The notes under the pieces: generated by a model
The model's database searches: none
What the model was told of the DNA's origin: nothing
The model's input: only the letters and a program-made list of their open reading frames with translations
Made by a program: the position numbers and the translations under genes
Origin: Eledone cirrhosa
Lineage: Eukaryota
Assembly (NCBI GenBank): GCA_964016885.1
Contig: OZ024741.1
Coordinates: 164,238,001 to 164,302,000, forward strand
Length of the DNA stretch: 64,000 nt
Reading direction: 5' to 3'
Shown: one piece after another, positions 9,665 through 62,317 of the stretch
Numbering within the stretch: position 1 is the first letter of the stretch
Layout of the letters: each line of letters starts with the position of its first letter

Positions 9665-10600
9665 ATGTGAAAAATATGTAGTTTAGAAAGCCACAACAAT
9701 GCAGATGGGAAATCTCGAGGTAAGAAGTGAGTGAGAAATAGGAGAAAAGTGAAAATGAAAATGAAAACAAAACAAAGGTAGAAGGGTTACCGTAGTGAAG
9801 ATTTAATCCCAATATTTCGGGCTCACGCCCATCAACGGGGGAAAGTTCCAAAAGGGGGGGGGGGGGGGGGACAGGCTAAGCCGGAGAAAGTTGTATTGTC
9901 GTTAAAACTTAGGAATGCCGTTATGGGGAAAATTCAAACGAGGGTAAGAATGCGCGTGCGCGTGATAGGCTGTGGCAAAAGCTACTGACCAATTGGGTTA
10001 AATCAATAGGGTGCGCTAGCGTGTGAAAGCCGTAAAATATGTGTGTGTAAATATATGTGTGTAAGTGTGTGTGTATATGTGTATGTGTGTATGTAAATGA
10101 GTGTGTGTGTGTGAAAGATAGTGGGCCGTAGAAGCTGGAAAACAAAGAGTGTGAAAGGTGATAGGTTGTATAAACATGTGTGCGTGTATAAATATAGATG
10201 TGTGTGTGTATGTGTATGGGTATACATATAAGTGCGTGTGTGTGAAAGATAGTAGGCCGTAGGGGCTGTTACTGGTCACTATGGTTAAATTAGCCATGTC
10301 AGCTCATTTCTCTCAGCCCGGTTGTTAAGTAGGGGTCTGAGGTTCTTAATAACAAGTGCTTCCTTTATCCTTAAGGATCCGATGCTGCGTTCAGTCGCTA
10401 GGACTGTGACCAAGGAAATTGGCCGAGGAAATTGAAGAATGCATTATCCACAACGAAGGAGAGGAGTTGGTGGATGTCCGTGTGTGTGAGTCCCAAGCAG
10501 TGTAAGTTAGATGCTCGGACTCGTTCGGTCAACAGGTCGACGGCTGGGGATGCTGGTACGGAGGTATAAAGGGCGACCACATCAAGACTGAAGGCATATC
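9665..10600 (-). repeat. Inverted duplications of the adjacent PLE (3' end and 5' start)
   Basis: 9665-10418 is the reverse complement of ~11710-12445. 10418-10600 is the reverse complement of ~10603-10785. Confidence 0.9.
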
Positions 10601-10602
10601 AA

Positions 10603-12440
10603 CGGATATGCCTTCAGTCTTGATGTGGTCGCCCTTTATACCTCCGTACCAGCATCCCCAGCCGTCGACCTGTTGACCGAACGAGTCCGAGCATCTAACT
10701 TACACTGCTTGGGACTCACACACACGGACATCCACCAACTCCTCTCCTTCGTTGTGGATAATGCATTCTTCAATTTCCTCGGCCACACGTACAAACAGAT
10801 CTCTGGGCTACCTATGGGCTCTAGTCTGTCCGGCATACTTGCGATCTCGTACATGGACCACCTGGAACGCAAGGCACTCAACACCTGCCAACCCAACGCC
10901 GTCGCCTTCTACTCCAGATACGTCGATGACATACTGATACTCACTTCTTCCCGGGAGATGGCGAATGAAATTCACCAAATCTTCAACGACACTGACCATC
11001 ACGTCGATTTCACCATCGAACACCCTGGAGAAGACGGGTCACTCGCCCTCCTCGACTTCCGTATCAACATCTCGGAAGAAGGAGACATAAACACCACTTT
11101 CTACCGCAAGGCAGCGTGCAAGGACTTATTTGTGCATTACAACTCAGCCCTCCCCAACAACGCTAAGAGAGGCTATGTCCTAAATGAACTTACACGGATC
11201 ACTAATAGATGCAACGACCCGATGGGTGGTCTCACCCATACCACGCAATTCCGTAATCTACTCAAGTCTAATGGATATCCAAAGCGACTGATTAACGGAA
11301 TTAGAGACCCCAGACCCAATAGACAGACACCTACTAGAAACTTAGGTAAAAGCAGGTGCTTCTTTAAAATCGCCCACCTGAGTGAATATACCACGAACGC
11401 CATCCGCAGGGCCATACGGAGGGAGGGACTTGACATACATTTGGCCCACACAGGACCTTCGCTCCGAAGATGCCTCTCCAACAAACCCGACGAGTCAGAT
11501 GGAACGTGTTCCCTCAGCAACTGCCCGATACGGGGGGCAGATTGCCTACGCACCTATGTCGTATATAAGATTCAATGAGATAAATGTAACAAGTTCTACA
11601 TAGGTAGCACCATCCGACCCCTACATGTTCGTATCAAGGAACATGTCAACACCAACGCATCTTCCTTCCGTAAATACATCCTTAAATGCGGAAACCCACA
11701 GGGCAGACCCTTGGTAACAGCCCTAGCGACTGAACGCAGCATCGGATCCTTAAGGATAAAGGAAGCACTTGTTATTAAGAACCTCAGACCCCCACTTAAC
11801 AACCGGGCTGAGAGAAATGAGCTGACATGGCTAATTTAACCATAGTGACCAGTAACAGCCCCTACGGCCTACTATCTTTCACACACACGCACTTATATGT
11901 ATACCCATACACATACACACACACATTTATATTTATACACGCACACATGTTTATACAACCTACCACCTTTCACACTCTTTGTTTTCCAGCTTCTACGGCC
12001 CACTATGTTTCACACACACACACTCACATACATACACACATACACATATACACACACACTTACACACACATATATATTTACACACACATATTTTACGGCT
12101 TTCACACGCTAGCGCACCCTATTGATTTAACCCAATTGGTCAGTAGCTTTTGCCACAGCCTATCACGCGCACGCGCATTCTTTCCCTCGTTTGAATTTTC
12201 CCCATAACGGCATTCCTAAGTTTTAACGACAATACAACTTTCTCCGGCTTAGCCTGTTCCCCCCCCCCCTTTTGGAACTTTTCCCCGTTGATGGGCGTGA
12301 GCCCGAAATATTGGGATTAAATCTCCACTACGGTAACCCTTCTACGTTTGTTTCGTTTTCATTTTCATTTTCACTTTTCTCCTATTTCTTACTCACTTCT
12401 TACCTCGAGATTTCCAATCTGCATTGTTGTGGCTTTCTAA

Positions 12441-13616: not shown

Positions 13617-13971
13617 AATATACATACACATACACATAGGTATGTGAAGGGCAAGGCAAAAAGAATATATGGGGGGGGGGGCATAGGAAAAGGTGAATTA
13701 TAAGGGGAGGTAAGGGAGAAAAAATATATATACAAGAGTACAGAACGTAGATTCAGCAAAATAAAAACCGTAGCAGAAGTAAAGAGCAGAGAGTTCAAGG
13801 CGGTTGATTTATCATAGGAGTGTCAATCCAGTTACAGATCAGATGCGATTTCAGATGAGGACAGCATCTGAAGATCTCAGTCTTTGAGTTAAGGCAAGCG
13901 GAAGTGGCTCTAAAGTTTAGCAAAATCCGATACTTTTCTGTGGTACACAAAGAACAATTCTTTGTGCCCCT
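13615..13971 (-). repeat. Inverted copy of the 3' end of the PLE at 13972-15680
   Basis: Encodes the same C-terminus (RGTKNCSLC...[24 protein letters not shown]) on the minus strand as 15320-15496 on plus. Confidence 0.9.
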
Positions 13972-15833
<1,862 letters not shown>

Positions 15834-16223: not shown

Positions 16224-16432
16224 ATATATATATATATATAAATATATGTATATATATAAATATATATATATATAACGAAGGAAATGTGGTAAGGAACCAG
16301 GTGGACCATAACGCACCAAAGTACTCAATACTTGGGGTAGTAGAGTGGGTAATAGGAACCAGTAAGACCCCGACGGCTGAGCTCAAGAGCCGTCGAAACG
16401 GCTTGAGCTCGGCCGTCGGGGTCTTACTGGTT

Positions 16433-16495
<63 letters not shown>

Positions 16496-16829: not shown

Positions 16830-17279
16830 AGTTATATTTAAAATTGTTGGGTTACAACTAGTAAATATTTATAACTGATATAAAAGCACTCGACAAATAT
16901 TTGGAGTATATTTACAATATTAAATAAATGGAAACTATATTTATAAAACCATATTTATTTCATTATATATATTTCGGGGATATCATATTAACAATATGCT
17001 ATGCCTTCCTCAGACAAAATACAATATAAACTGTTTTATAGATAAATAGATTCGACATACCGTAACAACACCGACTTGCATTTGGGGAGGTTGAGCTGGC
17101 AGCTCAACCTCCCCAAATGCAAGTCGGTGTTGTTACGGTATGTCGAATCTATTTATCTATAAAACAGTTTATATTGTATTTTGTCTGAGGAAGGCATAGC
17201 ATATTGTTAATATGATATCCCCGAAATATATATAATGAAATAAATATGGTTTTATAAATATAGTTTCCATTTATTTAAT

Positions 17280-17285
<6 letters not shown>
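16830..17285. repeat. Fold-back palindrome of PLE 3' end containing two family A hammerhead motifs (16956-17021 -, 17177-17242 +)
   Basis: Arms are reverse-complementary about GTTGAGCTGGCAGCTCAAC (~17098). Each arm has tattttgt-CTGAGGA...GAAA-t.atat.ATA-atgaaata. Confidence 0.85.
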
Positions 17286-17354
<69 letters not shown>

Positions 17355-18407: not shown

Positions 18408-20162
18408 ATGAATGTTGAAGCATCTTGTATAATGCATGAGTTGGAAATTGAGAACAGAACACAACCTTTCGTGCCCAGGAAACCGAAGATCAATATGAAG
18501 GACCACAAGAACAATTTTGAAAATGACCTGCCAGTGAGATTGATCGCACCTTCAAAATCGGACCTGGGAAAATTAAGTAAAAGCATTCTTGACAGGGTGA
18601 TACTGCAAATTAAGAACTTGGATTGTGTATCTAACCTGAGCTTGTGGAAGGGAACTGGAGAGGTTGTTGAGTGGTTTAGGCAAATTAAATATGACAATAA
18701 TAATAGGTTTATTCAACTTGATATAGCTAACTATTATTCTTCTATTACCCCTAGTCTACTAAATAGGGCACTAAATTACGCATTCAAGCATACGGACCTA
18801 ACTAGCAAAGAAATGCATATTATATTATCGGCTAGGAAAACTCTGATAGAATTTAATGACAAATTATGGACTAGAGCAGATAGAGATAGCAATTTTGACA
18901 TAACTATGGGATCTTCCGACTCAGCTCAGGTAACTGACCTTGTGGGCTTATTTTTAATCAATTCGCTACATAGGAAAATACCTGGTACTACCGGAGGTTT
19001 ATATAGGGATGACATGCTTTTACTTATTAATAATAATAACCCTGAACTAAATAGAAAATGTAAACAAATTACAAAATTTTTTAATTACTTTAACCTTAAA
19101 ATAGAAATTGAGAACAACCATAGAATAGTCAATTTCCTAGATATAACATTAAATCTCAACACATGTCTCCACTATCCTTTTCACAAGTTGAATGAAAACT
19201 TAAACTATGTCAACTTTAACTCTAACCACCCCAGATCTGTCAAAAACACTATAGTAAACTCAGTCCAAAAACGTATCTCTAGGATCTCGTCGAATAGAAA
19301 GATTTTTGACGAAAAGGCCCAATACTATAATGATGCACTAGCTAGGGCAGGGTATGCTGATAAGATTGTATACATAGATAATGATAGACAAACTAAACAA
19401 AGTAACAACTTTTTTAATTACGGCAACAACATTAACAACTATAATAGAAAGCATTACAATAATTCCAAAGGACAAAAAAGAAATAGAACTAGGAACATAA
19501 TTTGGTTTGCCCCCCCTTTCTCACTAAACATTAAAACCCACATCGCTAAATTATTTTTCAAAGCTCTTGATAATCGCTTCCCTAGAACACATAGGTATCA
19601 CTCAATCTTCAATAGGCATACAATTAAATTAACCTACTCATCCACCAAAAATTTAGCACAAAATATTAATAGAATAAATAATAGGAACTTAAAACCTACT
19701 GATAATAGCATAAATAATATACAAGTTAACAAATGTAACTGTAGAGATAGATCTAAATGTCCGTTAAATAACAACTGCTTAGTTAAAAATATAGTATACA
19801 ATTGTAATGTTAATACTGACTCTAATTCTTTTAACTACGTCGGTTCCACATCGACGGAATTTAAACTTCGCTATAATAACCACAAGAATTCTTTCACAGA
19901 TCCAAATAAAAAATCTTCAACGGCACTATCAGGGGTACTCTGGCAACTTAAGCTAGATAACGTTAGATATTCGACGGCTTGGAATATAGTCTCAAGAGGG
20001 ATTCCTTTTAATTCATCCTCTGAGACATGTGACCTCTGCGCAGAGGAGATATTCTTTATACTAAAATCTAAAAACTCCCTTAACCTACGGACAAATTTAT
20101 TCAGTTGTTGCAAACATAGATTAAACTCAACGTTTAAATATAAATTTAAATTTAAAATGTAG
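18408..20162 (+). CDS. Penelope-like element RT + GIY-YIG endonuclease, uninterrupted 584 aa (probably N-terminally truncated; Hydra-clade-like)
   Basis: PVRLIAPSKSDLG, QLDIANYYSSIT, FDITMGSSD, GLYRDDM, NFLDITL, SNHP, IIWFAPPFS, CNCRDRSKCPLNNNC, IVYNC...YVGST...FKLRYNNH, CDLC...E, CCKH. Confidence 0.93.
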   Translation: MNVEASCIMHELEIENRTQPFVPRKPKINMKDHKNNFENDLPVRLIAPSKSDLGKLSKSILDRVILQIKNLDCVSNLSLWKGTGEVVEWFRQIKYDNNNRFIQLDIANYYSSITPSLLNRALNYAFKHTDLTSKEMHIILSARKTLIEFNDKLWTRADRDSNFDITMGSSDSAQVTDLVGLFLINSLHRKIPGTTGGLYRDDMLLLINNNNPELNRKCKQITKFFNYFNLKIEIENNHRIVNFLDITLNLNTCLHYPFHKLNENLNYVNFNSNHPRSVKNTIVNSVQKRISRISSNRKIFDEKAQYYNDALARAGYADKIVYIDNDRQTKQSNNFFNYGNNINNYNRKHYNNSKGQKRNRTRNIIWFAPPFSLNIKTHIAKLFFKALDNRFPRTHRYHSIFNRHTIKLTYSSTKNLAQNINRINNRNLKPTDNSINNIQVNKCNCRDRSKCPLNNNCLVKNIVYNCNVNTDSNSFNYVGSTSTEFKLRYNNHKNSFTDPNKKSSTALSGVLWQLKLDNVRYSTAWNIVSRGIPFNSSSETCDLCAEEIFFILKSKNSLNLRTNLFSCCKHRLNSTFKYKFKFKM

Positions 20163-21333: not shown

Positions 21334-21693
21334 ATGTATCATTGATACACTTACTCAAAATGACCTCCCACTACCTAATTTTCTATATATATATATGTAT
21401 CTATCTCTATTTCCTCTCTCTCTATATATATATATATCTTTCTGTCTCTTTACATGAAGCTCTTCACTTTATCTATTTTTCCATCTCTCTATTTTGTTCC
21501 ATGCATTTCTTCTTTTTCTTTTTCTTCTTTTTCTTCCTTTTCTTCGTTTTGTCTTTCTTTCTTTCGTTTTTCCCTCTTTTCTTTCTCTCTTTCTTTCTCT
21601 CTGTATTTTCACTGCTAGCGTAAACCTCTTCAAATGAAGTTGATGTTTATTACGGTATGTCGAATATATTTATCTATAAAACTGTTTATATTG

Positions 21694-21759
21694 TATTTTG
21701 TCTGATGAAGGCATAGCATATTGTTAATATGATATCCCCGAAATATATATAATGAAATA
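21694..21759 (+). ncRNA. Minimal type I hammerhead ribozyme in PLE 3' region (family A)
   Basis: tattttgt-CTGATGA-aggcatagcatatt.gtt.aatatgatatcccc-GAAA-t.atat.ATA-atgaaata. Stem II has mismatches, including the closing pair. Further copies at 21866-21931 (-) and 22201-22266 (+). Confidence 0.8.
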
Positions 21760-22439
21760 AATATGGTTTTATAAATATAGTTTTCCATTTATTTAATATT
21801 GTATATATATATATATACATATACAATATTAAATAAATGGAAAACTATATTTATAAAACCATATTTATTTCATTATATATATTTCGGGGATATCATATTA
21901 ACAATATGTTATGCCTTCATCAGACAAAATACAATATAAACAGTTTTATAGATAAATATATTCGACATACCGTAATAAACATCAACTTCATTTGAAGAGG
22001 TTTACTCTAGCATTTCTTCTTTTTCTTTTTCTTCTTTTTCTTCCTCTTCTTCGTTTTGTCTTTCTTTCTTTCTTTTTTCCCTCTTTTCTTTCTCTCTTTC
22101 TTTCTCTCTGTATTTTCACTGCTAGAGTAAACCTCTTCAAATGAAGTTGATGTTTATTACGGTATGTCGAATATATTTATCTATAAAACTGTTTATATTG
22201 TATTTTGTCTGATGAAGGCATAACATATTGTTAATATGATATCCCCGAAATATATATAATGAAATAAATATGGTTTTATAAATATAGTTTTCCATTTATT
22301 TAATATTGTAAATATACTCCAAATATTTGTCGAGTGCTTTTATATCAGTTATAAATATTTACTAGTTGTAACCCAACAATTTTAAATATAACTTTACATA
22401 TATATATATATATATATTTGTGTGTGTATATGTATGTAT

Positions 22440-23591: not shown

Positions 23592-23840
23592 ATGTATGCT
23601 TTTGTGTGTGAGTGTGCGTGTTTTTGTGTGTGTGTTTGCATGTGTAGTTTTATTTTATTTTTACTTTCCTTCTTCCTTGTCCAGCCTCACTTTCATATAG
23701 ATTGCATTTTTGTTTTTAAAATCCAAATTCAATAAACAGACCAAAATTTTTTCATTCTGAGGATTGAAAGCAAACTCTTTTGCTTTTAAGAAACCACTGG
23801 TAAATGGAATAATTGCCTTATGTTGTTTATTACATAACTA
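22440..23840 (+). mobile_element. Non-coding element bounded by ~100-bp direct repeats that each contain a hammerhead motif (retrozyme-like or non-autonomous PLE)
   Basis: Direct repeats at ~22447-22545 and ~23735-23835. An inverted second copy lies at 9310-9625 plus 12445-13500, split by the PLE insertion. Confidence 0.7.
23751..23809 (+). ncRNA. Type I hammerhead ribozyme (family B)
   Basis: ttcatt-CTGAGGA-ttgaaagcaaa...tttgcttttaa-GAAA-cc.act.g-GTA-aatgga; predicted cleavage after 23802. Confidence 0.85.
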
Positions 23841-23989: not shown

Positions 23990-24217
23990 GTAAAAACGCA
24001 GCGGTATATTTTAATTTGGCCCTTTTAAGGGCCACAAATATTTTCATTTAAGTAACTCCACTTACATCTATATGCTTTAATAAAAAAAAAATTAAAAAAA
24101 TCGTGAAAAAAAAAATTTCATTTAAGTAACTCCACTTACGCGTGGTAGTAATACGGAAATAAACGATGTTTTGCTTCATCGGCTGCTTCGACTGACAGCT
24201 AATAGTGTTGTAGTGCC
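23990..24217. mobile_element. Merlin-related non-autonomous fragment
   Basis: Reverse-complement similarity to 61918-62210; ends in TGACAGCTAATAGTGTTGTAGTGCC like 62294-62317. Confidence 0.7.
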
Positions 24218-25721: not shown

Positions 25722-25789
25722 ATATATGAAGTAATTCCGTCGGAAAAGTCCAGGAAAAAAGAGTGCTCTATGTAGGTAACAGAGCTTAA

Positions 25790-26025
25790 TTATTATTATG
25801 TAATAAACAACATAAGGCAATTATTCCATTTACCAGTGGTTTCTTAAAAGCAAAAGGTTTTGCTTTCAAACCTCAGAATGAAAAAATCCTGGTTTGTTTA
25901 TTGAAATTCAATAAACAAACCAGGATTTTTTCATTCTGAGGATTGAAAGCAAAACCTTTTGCTTCTAAGAAACCACTGGTAAATGGAATAATTGCCTTAT
26001 GTTGTTTATTACATAATAATAATAA
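25790..26025. repeat. Fold-back palindrome with two family B hammerhead motifs (25824-25884 -, core mutated; 25930-25988 +, intact)
   Basis: Arms mirror about TTTATTGAAATTCAATAAA (~25905). Confidence 0.85.
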
Positions 26026-35972: not shown

Positions 35973-36000
<28 letters not shown>

Positions 36001-36006
<6 letters not shown>

Positions 36007-36163
36007 TTACAACAGTGACATAAACAGGTACTTAAGTTTCGTTGGGTTCTGGGCCCCAACTCATTCAGCCCGTCATAAGAAAAATATGACAGGCTGAAAG
36101 AGTTGGGGTCCAGAACCCAAAGAAACTTAAGTACCTCTTTTATGTCACTGTTGTAATTATTTT
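36001..36163. ncRNA. Palindrome encoding a hammerhead-like motif on each strand (family E, CUGANNGA core)
   Basis: Minus 36023-36074: gacggg-CTGAATGA-gttggg...cccaac-GAAA-c.ttaa.GTA-cctgtt. Plus 36088-36139: gacagg-CTGAAAGA-gttggg...cccaaa-GAAA-c.ttaa.GTA-cctctt. Confidence 0.72.
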
Positions 36164-36486
36164 TACTAAACTTGTCCTATGGGCTGAGTGCTCTTTCTCT
36201 TGGATATTTCTACCAAACTTTTACTATGGTATATGTATATATATAATGTTTATATAAGCATATGTATATATAAATATATATATGTATCTATCTATATAAC
36301 GAAGGAGGTGTGGTAAGGAACCAGAAGGACCATAACGCAGCAGAGTACTCAATACTTAGGATAGTAGAGTGGGTAATAGGATAATGTTTAACCTCGATGG
36401 CAGAGTTCAAGCCGTTTCGACGACTATTTCTGGACAGAAATAGCCATCGAAACGGCTTGAGCTCTGCCGTTGGGGTTAAACATTTT

Positions 36487-36572
<86 letters not shown>

Positions 36573-51590: not shown

Positions 51591-51805
51591 ATTATGATAT
51601 CAATATTAATACAGTGCATAATAATCGTTTCTACTTTTGGCACAAGGCCAGCAATTATCCTAGTACATTACTGGTACTTTATTTTATCGACCCCGTAAGG
51701 ATGAAAGGTAAAGTTAACCTCGGCGGGTTAACTTTGCCTTTCATCCTTACGGGGTCGATAAAATAAAGTACGAGTAATGCACTGTATTAATATTGATATC
51801 ATAAT
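51591..51805. repeat. Fold-back palindrome of a partial SINE plus flank
   Basis: Arms mirror about GTTAACCTCGGCGGGTTAAC (~51722). Confidence 0.85.
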
Positions 51806-59734: not shown

Positions 59735-60710
59735 TATTTTCATAGTCATGGTTATCAATGTAGAAATCACCAACAGTGGAGTTACTTCTGACAGCTAATA
59801 CCATGAACTTAAATGAATTTTCACCAACAGTGGAGTTACTTCTGACAGCTAATACCATGAACTATATTTTCATAGTCATGGTTATCAATGTAGAAAACAA
59901 GTCATTTTCACCAACAGTGGAGTTACTTCTGACAGCTAATACCATGAACTATATTTTCATAGTCATGGTTATCAATGTAGAAAACGAGTCATTTTCACCA
60001 ACAGTGGAGTTACTTCTGACAGCTAATACCATGAACTATATTTTCATAGCCATGATTATCAATGTAGAAAACAAGTCATTTTCACCAACAGTGGAGTTAC
60101 TTCTGACAGCTAATACCATGAACTATATTTTCATAGCCATGGTTATCAATGTAGAAAACGAGTCATTTTCACCAACAGTGGAGTTACTTCTGACAGCTAA
60201 TACCATGAACTATATTTTCATAGCCATGGTTATCAATGTAGAAAACAAGTCATTTTCACCAACAGTGGAGCTACTTCTGACAGCTAATACCATGAACTAT
60301 ATTTTCATAGCCATGGTTATCAATGTAGAAAACAAGTCATTTTCACCAACAGTGGAGCTACTTCTGACAGCTAATACCATGAACTATATTTTCATAGCCA
60401 TGGTTATCAATGTAGAAAACAAGTCATTTTCACCAACAGTGGAGCTACTTCTGACAGCTAATACCATGAACTATATTTTCATAGCCATGGTTATCAATGT
60501 AGAAAACAAGTCATTTTCACCAACAGTGGAGTTACTTCTGACAGCTAATACCATGAACTATATTTTCATAGTCATGGTTATCAATGTAGAAAACAAGTCA
60601 TTTTCACCAACAGTTGAGTTACTTCTGACAGCTAATACCATGAACTATATTTTCATAGCCATGGTTATCAATGTAGAAAACAAGTCATTTTCACCAACAG
60701 TGGAGTTAAC
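59735..60710. repeat. 87-bp tandem array (~11 units) within the Merlin left subterminal region
   Basis: TCACCAACAG recurs at 59821, 59908, 59995...; the units are nearly identical. Confidence 0.95.
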
Positions 60711-60985
60711 TTAAATGAAAATATAGGTGGCCCTTAAAAGGGCCAAATTAGAAAACAAATATATGGTTATCAAATTTTTTTCACCAACCCTATACATTTA
60801 TGAAGAAATGTTTAGAAAACAAATTTGTTTCACCAACCTTATTCAAAAGCATGGATACAGTCCACATGGAGACAAGAGACAGTCCCCATGGAGACAATCA
60901 TCACCAACACCACCAACATCAAGTGTAAATAAATAAACTTTAATCTTCACTTTGTGATAATACACGCATTTGCAAGTTGAAAAAT

Positions 60986-61917: not shown

Positions 61918-62317
61918 GACACTACAACGCTATTAGCTGTCAGTCCAGTGGAAAACAGGCGAAGGTGACGCCACTCGTCAACATCGTTTATTTCCGTATT
62001 ACTACCACGCGGAAGTGGAGTTTTCACGCGTTTTTTTTTTTTTGAGAGAGAGAGGGAAGAGGAGAGATAGGGAAGAGAGAGAGAGGGGGAAGACTTAAAA
62101 GGGCTAAATTAGAAAACAAATAGAAAACAAGTCTTGGTTATAAAGCATATCGATGTAAGTGGAGTTACTTAAATGAAAATATAGGTGGCCCTTAAAAGGG
62201 CCAAATTAGAAAACAAGTCATGGTTATCAATGTAGAAAACAAGTCATTCATAAATTTAAGTTTTATAATCAAATTTTTTTCACCAACAAATATGACAGCT
62301 AATAGCGTTGTAGTGCC
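61918..62317. mobile_element. Merlin-derived MITE with ~24-bp TIRs
   Basis: GACACTACAACGCTATTAGCTGTCA ... TGACAGCTAATAGCGTTGTAGTGCC. Confidence 0.75.

What the first reader, a model, noticed from the sequence alone, without database searches (positions are those of the whole stretch)
36001..36163. 160-bp palindrome with an ambisense pair of hammerheads bearing an expanded CUGANNGA core
Seen: both arms show a full HHR layout (6-bp stem I, gttggg/cccaac stem II, GAAA-C-UUAA-GUA), but the core has an extra base: CUGAAUGA on minus, CUGAAAGA on plus. The arms differ at several positions, so this is not a fresh read artefact, yet both retain the 8-nt core. Inference: a natural one-nucleotide core-insertion HHR variant. 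A transcript from either strand would carry one ribozyme plus its antisense, so hairpin and ribozyme folds compete. This resembles the ambisense ribozyme layout of viroid-like RNAs.
Basis: partly seen in the sequence, partly recalled or inferred. Interest (0 to 1): 0.75.

Follow-up and report, generated by a model that had tools for sequence, protein, structure and literature searches.

The report
Penelope stub with shifted hammerhead core
This palindrome is a back-to-back pair of stubs left by an old Penelope-type jumping gene, and its hammerhead RNA motif has one extra core letter that most of the family shares and that one young branch later shifted back to the textbook form; the motif likely once cut RNA slowly, but cutting has not been tested and this copy is probably dead.

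Summary
The palindrome is real (z -22), and both arms carry an 8-nt core. Only the minus arm is an intact hammerhead; the plus arm has lost G10.1-C11.1 and a stem I pair. It is not viroid-like. It is a head-to-head pair of 5'-truncated ends of an old, high-copy Penelope-like element with Hydra-clade protein motifs, inserted in (TA)n. That layout is published, and a second such palindrome with ordinary 7-nt cores lies in this window. CUGAAUGA is not private: 295 genome matches against one simple 7-nt deletion. It is ancestral across three subfamilies whose 3' UTRs diverged. One nested young lineage reads CUGAAGA+AA, the canonical register. The same insertion (A6a) was reported in 2011 as a weakly active natural variant (PMC3088659), recurs in phage hammerheads, and this scan noted it earlier on phage DNA. 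I found no report of it fixed in an animal retroelement family. Cleavage is untested; fold-back should block it here. New variant of a known kind; modest interest.

The parts
36003..36229 (.). Whole insertion: two head-to-head 5'-truncated ends of a Penelope-like element (family A, subfamily A1a), in a (TA)n tract
   Evidence: TA runs at 35975-36005 and 36230-36298
36003..36085 (-). Short arm: ends ~25 nt past the predicted cut site (the family's short 3' end); 5' boundary ~17 nt before C3
36023..36074 (-). Intact minimal type I hammerhead fold: stem I 36074-36069/36028-36023, core CUGAAUGA 36068-36061, stem II 36060-36041, GAAAC 36040-36036, palindromic loop III 36035-36032, GUA 36031-36029
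36061..36068 (-). 8-nt core strand (A6a-type insertion), family-ancestral
36078..36084 (.). Unpaired centre of the palindrome; it is part of the family's T-rich tract read on the minus strand, joined to the plus arm
36085..36160 (+). Long arm, hammerhead part, decayed: core CUGAAAGA 36094-36101 (private change at 36099), C11.1 lost at 36121, stem I mismatch at 36137; predicted cut between 36133 and 36134
36161..36229 (+). One-sided ~70-nt 'tail' up to the family's long 3' end; part of it is also found ahead of the ORF start in the long copy L062

Best explanation
The palindrome is a head-to-head pair of short stubs of an old Penelope-like retroelement family with Hydra-clade protein motifs, and its 8-nt hammerhead core is the family's ancestral form, which likely worked as a slow, dimer-dependent ribozyme in the once-active elements and is probably silent in this copy. 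Shown: the arms belong to a family of nested 5'-truncated copies with two fixed 3' ends in (TA)n; long copies carry a broken RT plus C-terminal GIY-YIG-type ORF just upstream; the core is CUGAAUGA in the A1a, A1b, A2 and A3 lineages and CUGAAGA+AA in the nested A1c lineage. Inferred from published PLE work: the element's protein nicked the TA tract and started reverse transcription at two internal sites (short end and tail end), and the two short cDNAs were joined near the hammerhead's 5' side, giving an inverted pair with a one-sided tail. Inferred: the strand between stem I and stem II has the same length (8 nt) as in ordinary PLE hammerheads, which carry a spare base after A9; here the spare base sits after A6. 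Two same-sense copies in a tandem transcript would pair their ACUUAAGU palindromes to build stem III and cut after GUA at a low rate. At this locus a read-through RNA would fold into the long hairpin, no same-sense partner is near, and the plus arm is mutated, so no cutting is expected.
For: Family size: 2329 first-look candidates, 40 scored; 519 exact matches of a 24-nt piece 3' of the site. Nested 5' truncation up to >1.6 kb. ORF motifs in L061-L063, including RWRA and a CxCX5C linker, fit PMC8557442 section 11 and, by eye, its Hydra-1_Obim protein. A1 copies align to the sister-family protein at 43-72% per segment. L061 has an inverted copy of its own end at its 5' side. Head-to-head partner in 13 of 30 loci, none tail-to-tail. 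22 long and 15 short 3' ends among 37 arms. Core: 295 matches with a 1-3 nt spacer, 99 of the first 100 listed being 8-nt; 1 match for the simple 7-nt form; 18 of 30 hits chosen only by sequence 3' of the site are 8-nt, 4 are A1c, 2 unclear, 6 truncated (read by eye). Signs of selection on the fold: A1 vs A2 majority identity is 0.92 in the hammerhead against 0.51-0.57 in the 3' UTR and 0.82-0.94 in the ORF end. One stem I pair reads G-U (88 and 92 of 94), A-U (20 and 21 of 21) and G-C (6 and 6 of 6) in A1, A2 and A3, other differences falling in loop II and a bulge; the loop III variant UUGA (24 of 94) still pairs in a dimer. The variant is tolerated elsewhere: low but reported activity of A6a (PMC3088659 section 8); 10 of 120 sampled phage hits (8 distinct) form full hammerheads against 3 of 120 weak ones (2 distinct) for a control motif. 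Fold-back: -127 and -124 kcal/mol, stem II probability ~0.
Against: No cleavage or expression data. Pfam does not recognise the ORF pieces, so the clade rests on motifs and comparison by eye. Conservation of the region could reflect a protein-binding or priming signal rather than catalysis: hammerhead mutants did not block insertion in vitro in a Poseidon element (PMC11167929). The A1b and A1c lineages spread with an A10.1.C11.1 mismatch (312 matches), which points to weak selection on catalysis. Covariation rests on one pair and 6 A3 arms. A2 rows are heterogeneous in the UTR (pairwise 0.23-0.41), which lowers the UTR figure.
Confidence: 0.7

Rival explanations
1. Same Penelope origin, but the 8-nt core killed catalysis. 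The family kept the hammerhead-shaped RNA only as a binding, promoter or priming signal, or by hitch-hiking, and the A1c change is drift.
For: A6a is expected to disturb the core and showed low activity (PMC3088659). Insertion in vitro did not need cleavage (PMC11167929). Naiads spread without canonical hammerheads (PMC8557442). A1b and A1c lost G10.1-C11.1 yet left hundreds of copies. Nearly all copies read through the cut site.
Against: No core or stem-breaking change separates the A1a, A2 and A3 majorities, while loop II and the UTR changed. Loop III stays self-complementary. The identical core recurs in unrelated phage hammerheads with strong stems. Read-through is just as common in the canonical-core sister family B, so it does not discriminate.
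Confidence: 0.22
2. The palindrome is a functional ambisense unit (viroid-like or retrozyme-like), whose two ribozymes process RNAs of both strands or are switched by the hairpin.
For: Both strands carry a hammerhead-shaped motif. RNA starting at the centre would fold the minus-arm stems (stem II 0.9-0.98, stem I about 0.5). The locus is present three times on C2.
Against: The arms are an inverted duplicate of one sequence. The plus arm has three private damaging changes. Fold points vary among insertions (-33 to +8). There is no tandem array. The three copies are identical over kilobases of flank, that is a segmental duplication. A canonical-core family forms the same kind of palindrome at 25789-26023.
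Confidence: 0.04
3. The extra base is a private mutation or an assembly error.
For: CUGAAAGA in the plus arm is indeed private (only the 3 duplicated loci among the first 100 listed).
Against: The 8-nt length is family-wide. No core deletion reached the 5% listing threshold in 4 laid runs labelled with two organisms.
Confidence: 0.01

Closest known systems
Hydra clade of Penelope-like elements (Craig et al. 2021, PMC8557442; passages, section 11, supplement parts 1-2 and search hits)
   Same: Short element (L062 spans about 2.6 kb), RT with C-terminal nuclease, RW(R/K) motif, CxCX5C linker, (TA)n targets, hammerhead near the 3' end. Penelope-13_HM is listed with the motif on both strands because of an inverted 5'-truncated copy.
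   Different: All Hydra rows of File S2 show a 7-nt CUGANGA, and 'ctgaatgag' has 0 hits in that supplement. This family has the 8-nt core and a ~70-nt tail rather than 30-40 nt.
Minimal/dimeric type I hammerheads of PLEs (Cervera and de la Pena 2014, PMC4209133; parts 1-2 of 4)
   Same: Long stem II, tiny palindromic stem III, predicted dimer cleavage, mostly solo truncated copies, dual motifs close together on opposite strands, and an 8-nt strand between stems I and II.
   Different: There the spare base lies between A9 and 10.1; here it lies between A6 and G8 (except in lineage A1c).
A6a core-insertion hammerhead (Perreault et al. 2011, PMC3088659; section 8, passages, supplements 6-7 unreadable as structures)
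   Same: One base inserted after A6 in a natural hammerhead; low activity reported.
   Different: There a rare variant among mostly microbial finds; here the ancestral state of a high-copy animal retroelement family, in a dimer-type scaffold, with a later return to the 7-nt register.
Inverted pLTR plus one-sided tail of EN+ PLE insertions (PMC3846280 passages; PMC11167929 parts 1-2 of 4)
   Same: Head-to-head inverted ends, tail on one arm, two fixed 3' ends, AT-rich target.
   Different: Here both copies are so short that only the hammerhead-bearing ends remain.
Viroids and viroid-like RNAs with hammerheads in both polarities (PMC7461866, abstract in search listing; otherwise recalled)
   Same: A hammerhead motif on each strand.
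   Different: These are replicating circular RNAs; this is a genomic DNA inversion of one sequence.

Membership tests
Hammerhead ribozyme (type I, PLE minimal form) | Core strand CUGANGA (7 nt) | tested here: not met
   8 nt in both arms; lineage A1c has the 7-nt register
Hammerhead ribozyme (type I, PLE minimal form) | GAAA, A15.1-U16.1 and NUH site | tested here: met
   GAAAC-UUAA-GUA in both arms
Hammerhead ribozyme (type I, PLE minimal form) | Stems I and II with G10.1-C11.1 | tested here: inconclusive
   Met in the minus arm (6/6 and 6/6); not met in the plus arm
Hammerhead ribozyme (type I, PLE minimal form) | Palindromic stem/loop III able to pair in a dimer | tested here: met
   8-bp self-duplex, -6.6 kcal/mol; UUGA variant keeps pairing
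Hammerhead ribozyme (type I, PLE minimal form) | Match to an Rfam hammerhead model | tested here: not met
   None at E<=1; the canonical-core motifs in the window were missed too
Hammerhead ribozyme (type I, PLE minimal form) | Site-specific self-cleavage | not testable with these tools
   Needs an in vitro assay
Penelope-like element, Hydra clade | RT followed by C-terminal GIY-YIG-type nuclease in one ORF | tested here: met
   Broken ORF in L061-L063, collinear with the long ORF of sister family B; recognised by motif, no Pfam hit
Penelope-like element, Hydra clade | RWK motif and CxCX5C linker | tested here: met
   RWRA in L062; CxCX5C in L062 and L063; RWR also occurs in the published Hydra-1_Crog
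Penelope-like element, Hydra clade | DKT motif | tested here: inconclusive
   Seen in sister family B; not readable in the broken family A copies
Penelope-like element, Hydra clade | Insertion into (TA)n, 5' truncation, inverted end, one-sided tail | tested here: met
Penelope-like element, Hydra clade | Canonical hammerhead near the 3' end | tested here: not met
   Motif is in the expected place but has the 8-nt core
Penelope-like element, Hydra clade | Grouping with published Hydra RTs in a tree; absence of the CCHH motif | not tested
   Only compared by eye with the supplement
Non-LTR retrozyme | Head-to-tail tandem units each with a hammerhead | tested here: not met
   No tandem array at the locus; partners are head to head
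Viroid-like ambisense RNA | Replicating circular RNA with working ribozymes in both polarities | not testable with these tools
   No RNA run to lay; DNA anatomy is an inverted duplicate

The most novel reading that the evidence does not exclude
An animal retroelement lineage ran for a long series of master elements on a catalytically active hammerhead with an 8-nt CUGAAUGA core, kept by selection, and its youngest branch then slid the spare base from after A6 to after A9 and regained the textbook register. The A1a, A1b, A1c series is then a natural experiment on whether cutting matters to Penelope elements, and motif searches for CUGANGA miss whole families.
Probability: 0.35. Interest if true: 0.58.

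Novelty: new variant of a known kind. Interest (0 to 1): 0.36.

Why it matters
The role of hammerheads in Penelope-like elements is stated to be unclear (PMC8557442). This family gives three natural cores on one scaffold (8-nt with G10.1-C11.1; 8-nt without it; 7-nt regained) in a known order of descent, so cleavage rates can be set against transposition history. It also shows that CUGANGA-based screens miss a family with hundreds to thousands of copies. The palindrome itself and this particular copy are ordinary.

Tried and rejected
Rfam scan: no hammerhead hit, only hairpin-driven miRNA matches below threshold. Pfam on 7 ORF fragments and 2 long ORFs: nothing significant. Other 8-nt-core families in the genome: 50 matches to a family-agnostic pattern (15 for the reversed control; the pattern excluded U after G10.1); of the 30 fetched, those that were not family A were pieces of long stems of other motifs or lacked stem I pairing, by eye. 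Metagenome scan: 3 hits, none a hammerhead. Sequencing runs: no RNA holder listed, so expression was not examined. Pile-up of 5' ends at the cut site as a sign of cleavage: none in 30 family A hits and none exactly at the site in 30 family B loci, so uninformative. Lunse et al. 2017 on PLE hammerhead variants is not held; I saw only its citation and a summary in PMC6765202, and it may already list this core. Perreault supplements 6-7 gave no readable rate for A6a. The supplementary figures of PMC4209133 were not looked at and may bear on novelty. Paper searches: 'CUGANNGA' 0 papers; 'hammerhead'+'A6a' 2 papers; 'ctgaatgag' 0 in the Craig supplement; further searches showed no such family. A tree with published Hydra proteins was not built. 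My first core counts required G10.1 and so missed lineages A1b and A1c; searches corrected this.

Full report
1. Observation. Window 36001-36163 folds back on itself at -116.8 kcal/mol (shuffles -31.9, 0 of 200 as good). A pattern with an 8-nt core and GAAACTTAAGT finds exactly the two arms, against 0.00 expected. The minus arm is a complete minimal type I hammerhead: 6 of 6 pairs in stem I, 6 of 6 in stem II, GAAAC, a palindromic 4-nt loop and GUA. The plus arm has G10.1.A11.1 and a C.C mismatch in stem I, and alone it does not fold as a hammerhead. Rfam finds no hammerhead in the window.

2. The arm is a repeat. In the window's genome (G000, 3.0 Gb) the arm gave 2329 first-look candidates; 40 were scored and gave 61 matches, the 21 extra ones lying close by on the other strand. 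Three of these are this locus in a segmental triplicate. Among 30 loci taken in order of position, 13 have a head-to-head partner within 1.5 kb and none is tail-to-tail (two of the 13 rows are one insertion). Copies end 3' at two fixed places, about 25 and about 95 nt past the cut site, and run into (TA)n: 15 short and 22 long among 37 arms. The window has one of each, so the insertion spans about 36003-36229. Upstream, copies are nested 5' truncations, three reaching beyond 1.6 kb. The 33 arms with a close inverted partner begin between -33 and +8 of C3; of 21 without, 13 begin between -31 and 0 (only arms that keep loop II were counted). An RNA start or a strong stop there would explain this; I could not test it.

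3. The parent element. The long copies L061-L063 carry a broken ORF with RT motifs, a CxCX5C linker and a C-terminal nuclease region, ending about 350 nt before the hammerhead. L061 also has an inverted copy of its own end at its 5' side. Pfam does not recognise the pieces. A younger sister family B has open frames up to 722 aa with RWRA and DKT motifs, flanked in L094 by two pLTRs with a canonical CUGAAGA core. These features match the Hydra clade (PMC8557442 section 11), and by eye the protein resembles Hydra-1_Obim. That paper describes the inverted 5'-truncated copy and the one-sided tail as usual, and its File S2 lists Penelope-13_HM with the motif on both strands. PMC3846280 calls head-to-head the most frequent arrangement. 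PMC4209133 reports dual motifs on opposite strands 100-700 bp apart. PMC11167929 ties the tail to two reverse-transcription start sites and found cleavage unnecessary for insertion in vitro. The window holds a control: 25789-26023 is a palindrome of another family with 7-nt cores.

4. The core. With family flanks and a 1-3 nt spacer there are 295 genome matches; 99 of the first 100 listed are 8-nt, nearly all CUGAAUGA. The simple 7-nt form has 1 match. These patterns required G10.1. A sample chosen only by sequence 3' of the site (519 matches, first 30 fetched) gave 18 8-nt cores, 4 reading CUGAAGA+AA, 2 unclear and 6 truncated (by eye). A follow-up pattern gave 312 matches; of the first 100 listed, 40 were CUGAAUGA+A (A1b), 50 CUGAAGA+AA (A1c) and 10 one step from either (hand count). 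A tree of 41 upstream sequences, hammerhead left out, puts the 9 A1c rows in one clade (99/99) nested with A1b inside A1a, with A2 and A3 outside (L118 left out as A2-type; midpoint root, A1 as a whole 100/100). So the 8-nt core is ancestral and the 7-nt register derived. All Hydra rows of File S2 and family B have 7 nt. Ordinary PLE hammerheads carry a spare base after A9 (PMC4209133), so the strand length is the usual 8 and only the place of the spare base differs. Contigs of a run labelled with a second organism also carry the family, with no core deletion listed at the 5% threshold.

5. Was the fold selected? From 222 arm matches, 165 were distinct and 139 full-length: A1 94, A2 21, A3 6, unassigned 18 (mostly found by likeness to the arm, so biased towards its core). 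Between subfamily majorities the changes fall in loop II, a stem I bulge and one stem I pair that reads G-U, A-U and G-C. A1 and A2 majorities are 0.92 alike in the hammerhead, 0.51-0.57 in the 3' UTR and 0.82-0.94 in the ORF end (16 and 7 rows; A2 UTRs are heterogeneous). Against strict selection for catalysis: A1b and A1c lost G10.1-C11.1 and still spread. The family is old: copies are about 80% alike and the long copies examined are all broken.

6. Is the variant known? Perreault et al. 2011 report a natural insertion after A6 (A6a) with low activity (PMC3088659 section 8). Earlier notes of this scan saw CUGAAUGA in phage and bacterial hammerheads. I found no paper with this core fixed in a PLE family, but Lunse et al. 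2017 could not be read.

7. Mechanism and verdict. Shown: Penelope-family origin, inverted-stub anatomy, ancestral 8-nt core, derived 7-nt lineage, decay of the plus arm. Inferred: two internal priming sites and joining near the hammerhead; slow dimer cleavage in the active element; silence here, because a read-through RNA folds at about -125 kcal/mol with the ribozyme's stem II at probability about 0, and only an RNA starting at the centre would fold the minus-arm stems, still without a partner. No RNA data were available. It works like a PLE dimeric hammerhead; it fails the strict core test, so I file it as a variant with activity unproven. New variant of a known kind, interest 0.36.

Noticed in passing
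window 25789-26023: Second head-to-head palindrome with hammerhead motifs on both strands and 7-nt cores (CUGAGGA on plus, CUGAGGU on minus), long stem II; the same family motif stands at 23757 (+) and 9459 (-).
   Followed up: partly
window 36298-36491 and 16274-16437: Frequent (TA)n-inserted element made of a fold-back plus a ~75-nt tail. It has a GAAAC...GUC half of a hammerhead with a long stem III but no CUGANGA, and many copies fold at nearly the same place. It may be a non-autonomous unit or a very strong stop.
   Followed up: partly
window 13970-15463 and 18408-20162: Two other Hydra-type PLE ORFs (50% and 36% identical to family B; the second open for 584 aa) flanked by long inverted repeats.
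   Followed up: no
window 10420-10785, 16907-17291, 21613-22012, 51662-51783: Further near-perfect palindromes; 10420-10785 lies just before an RT-like ORF at 10814-11578.
   Followed up: no
L254-L283 (family A, lineage A1c): Young lineage with the 7-nt register regained but an A10.1.C11.1 mismatch and UUGA loop III.
   Followed up: yes
L167-L173: About 500 nt of foreign DNA inserted at the TA of the GTA cut triplet; one event, multiplied by segmental duplication on C4.
   Followed up: no
window 24013-24057 (+), 60704-60749 (-), 62163-62207 (-): Matches to the histone 3' stem-loop model at or just above its gathering score; histone genes not checked, and one match closes an 87-nt tandem array.
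   Followed up: no
L287, L295, L321, L325, L360, L368, L375, L400: Phage hammerheads of types I and III with the CUGAAUGA core and strong stems; L321 and L400 differ by compensated pairs.
   Followed up: partly
G000:C2 164.27, 164.34, 164.41 Mb: The locus and its flanks are repeated three times at about 70-kb spacing.
   Followed up: partly
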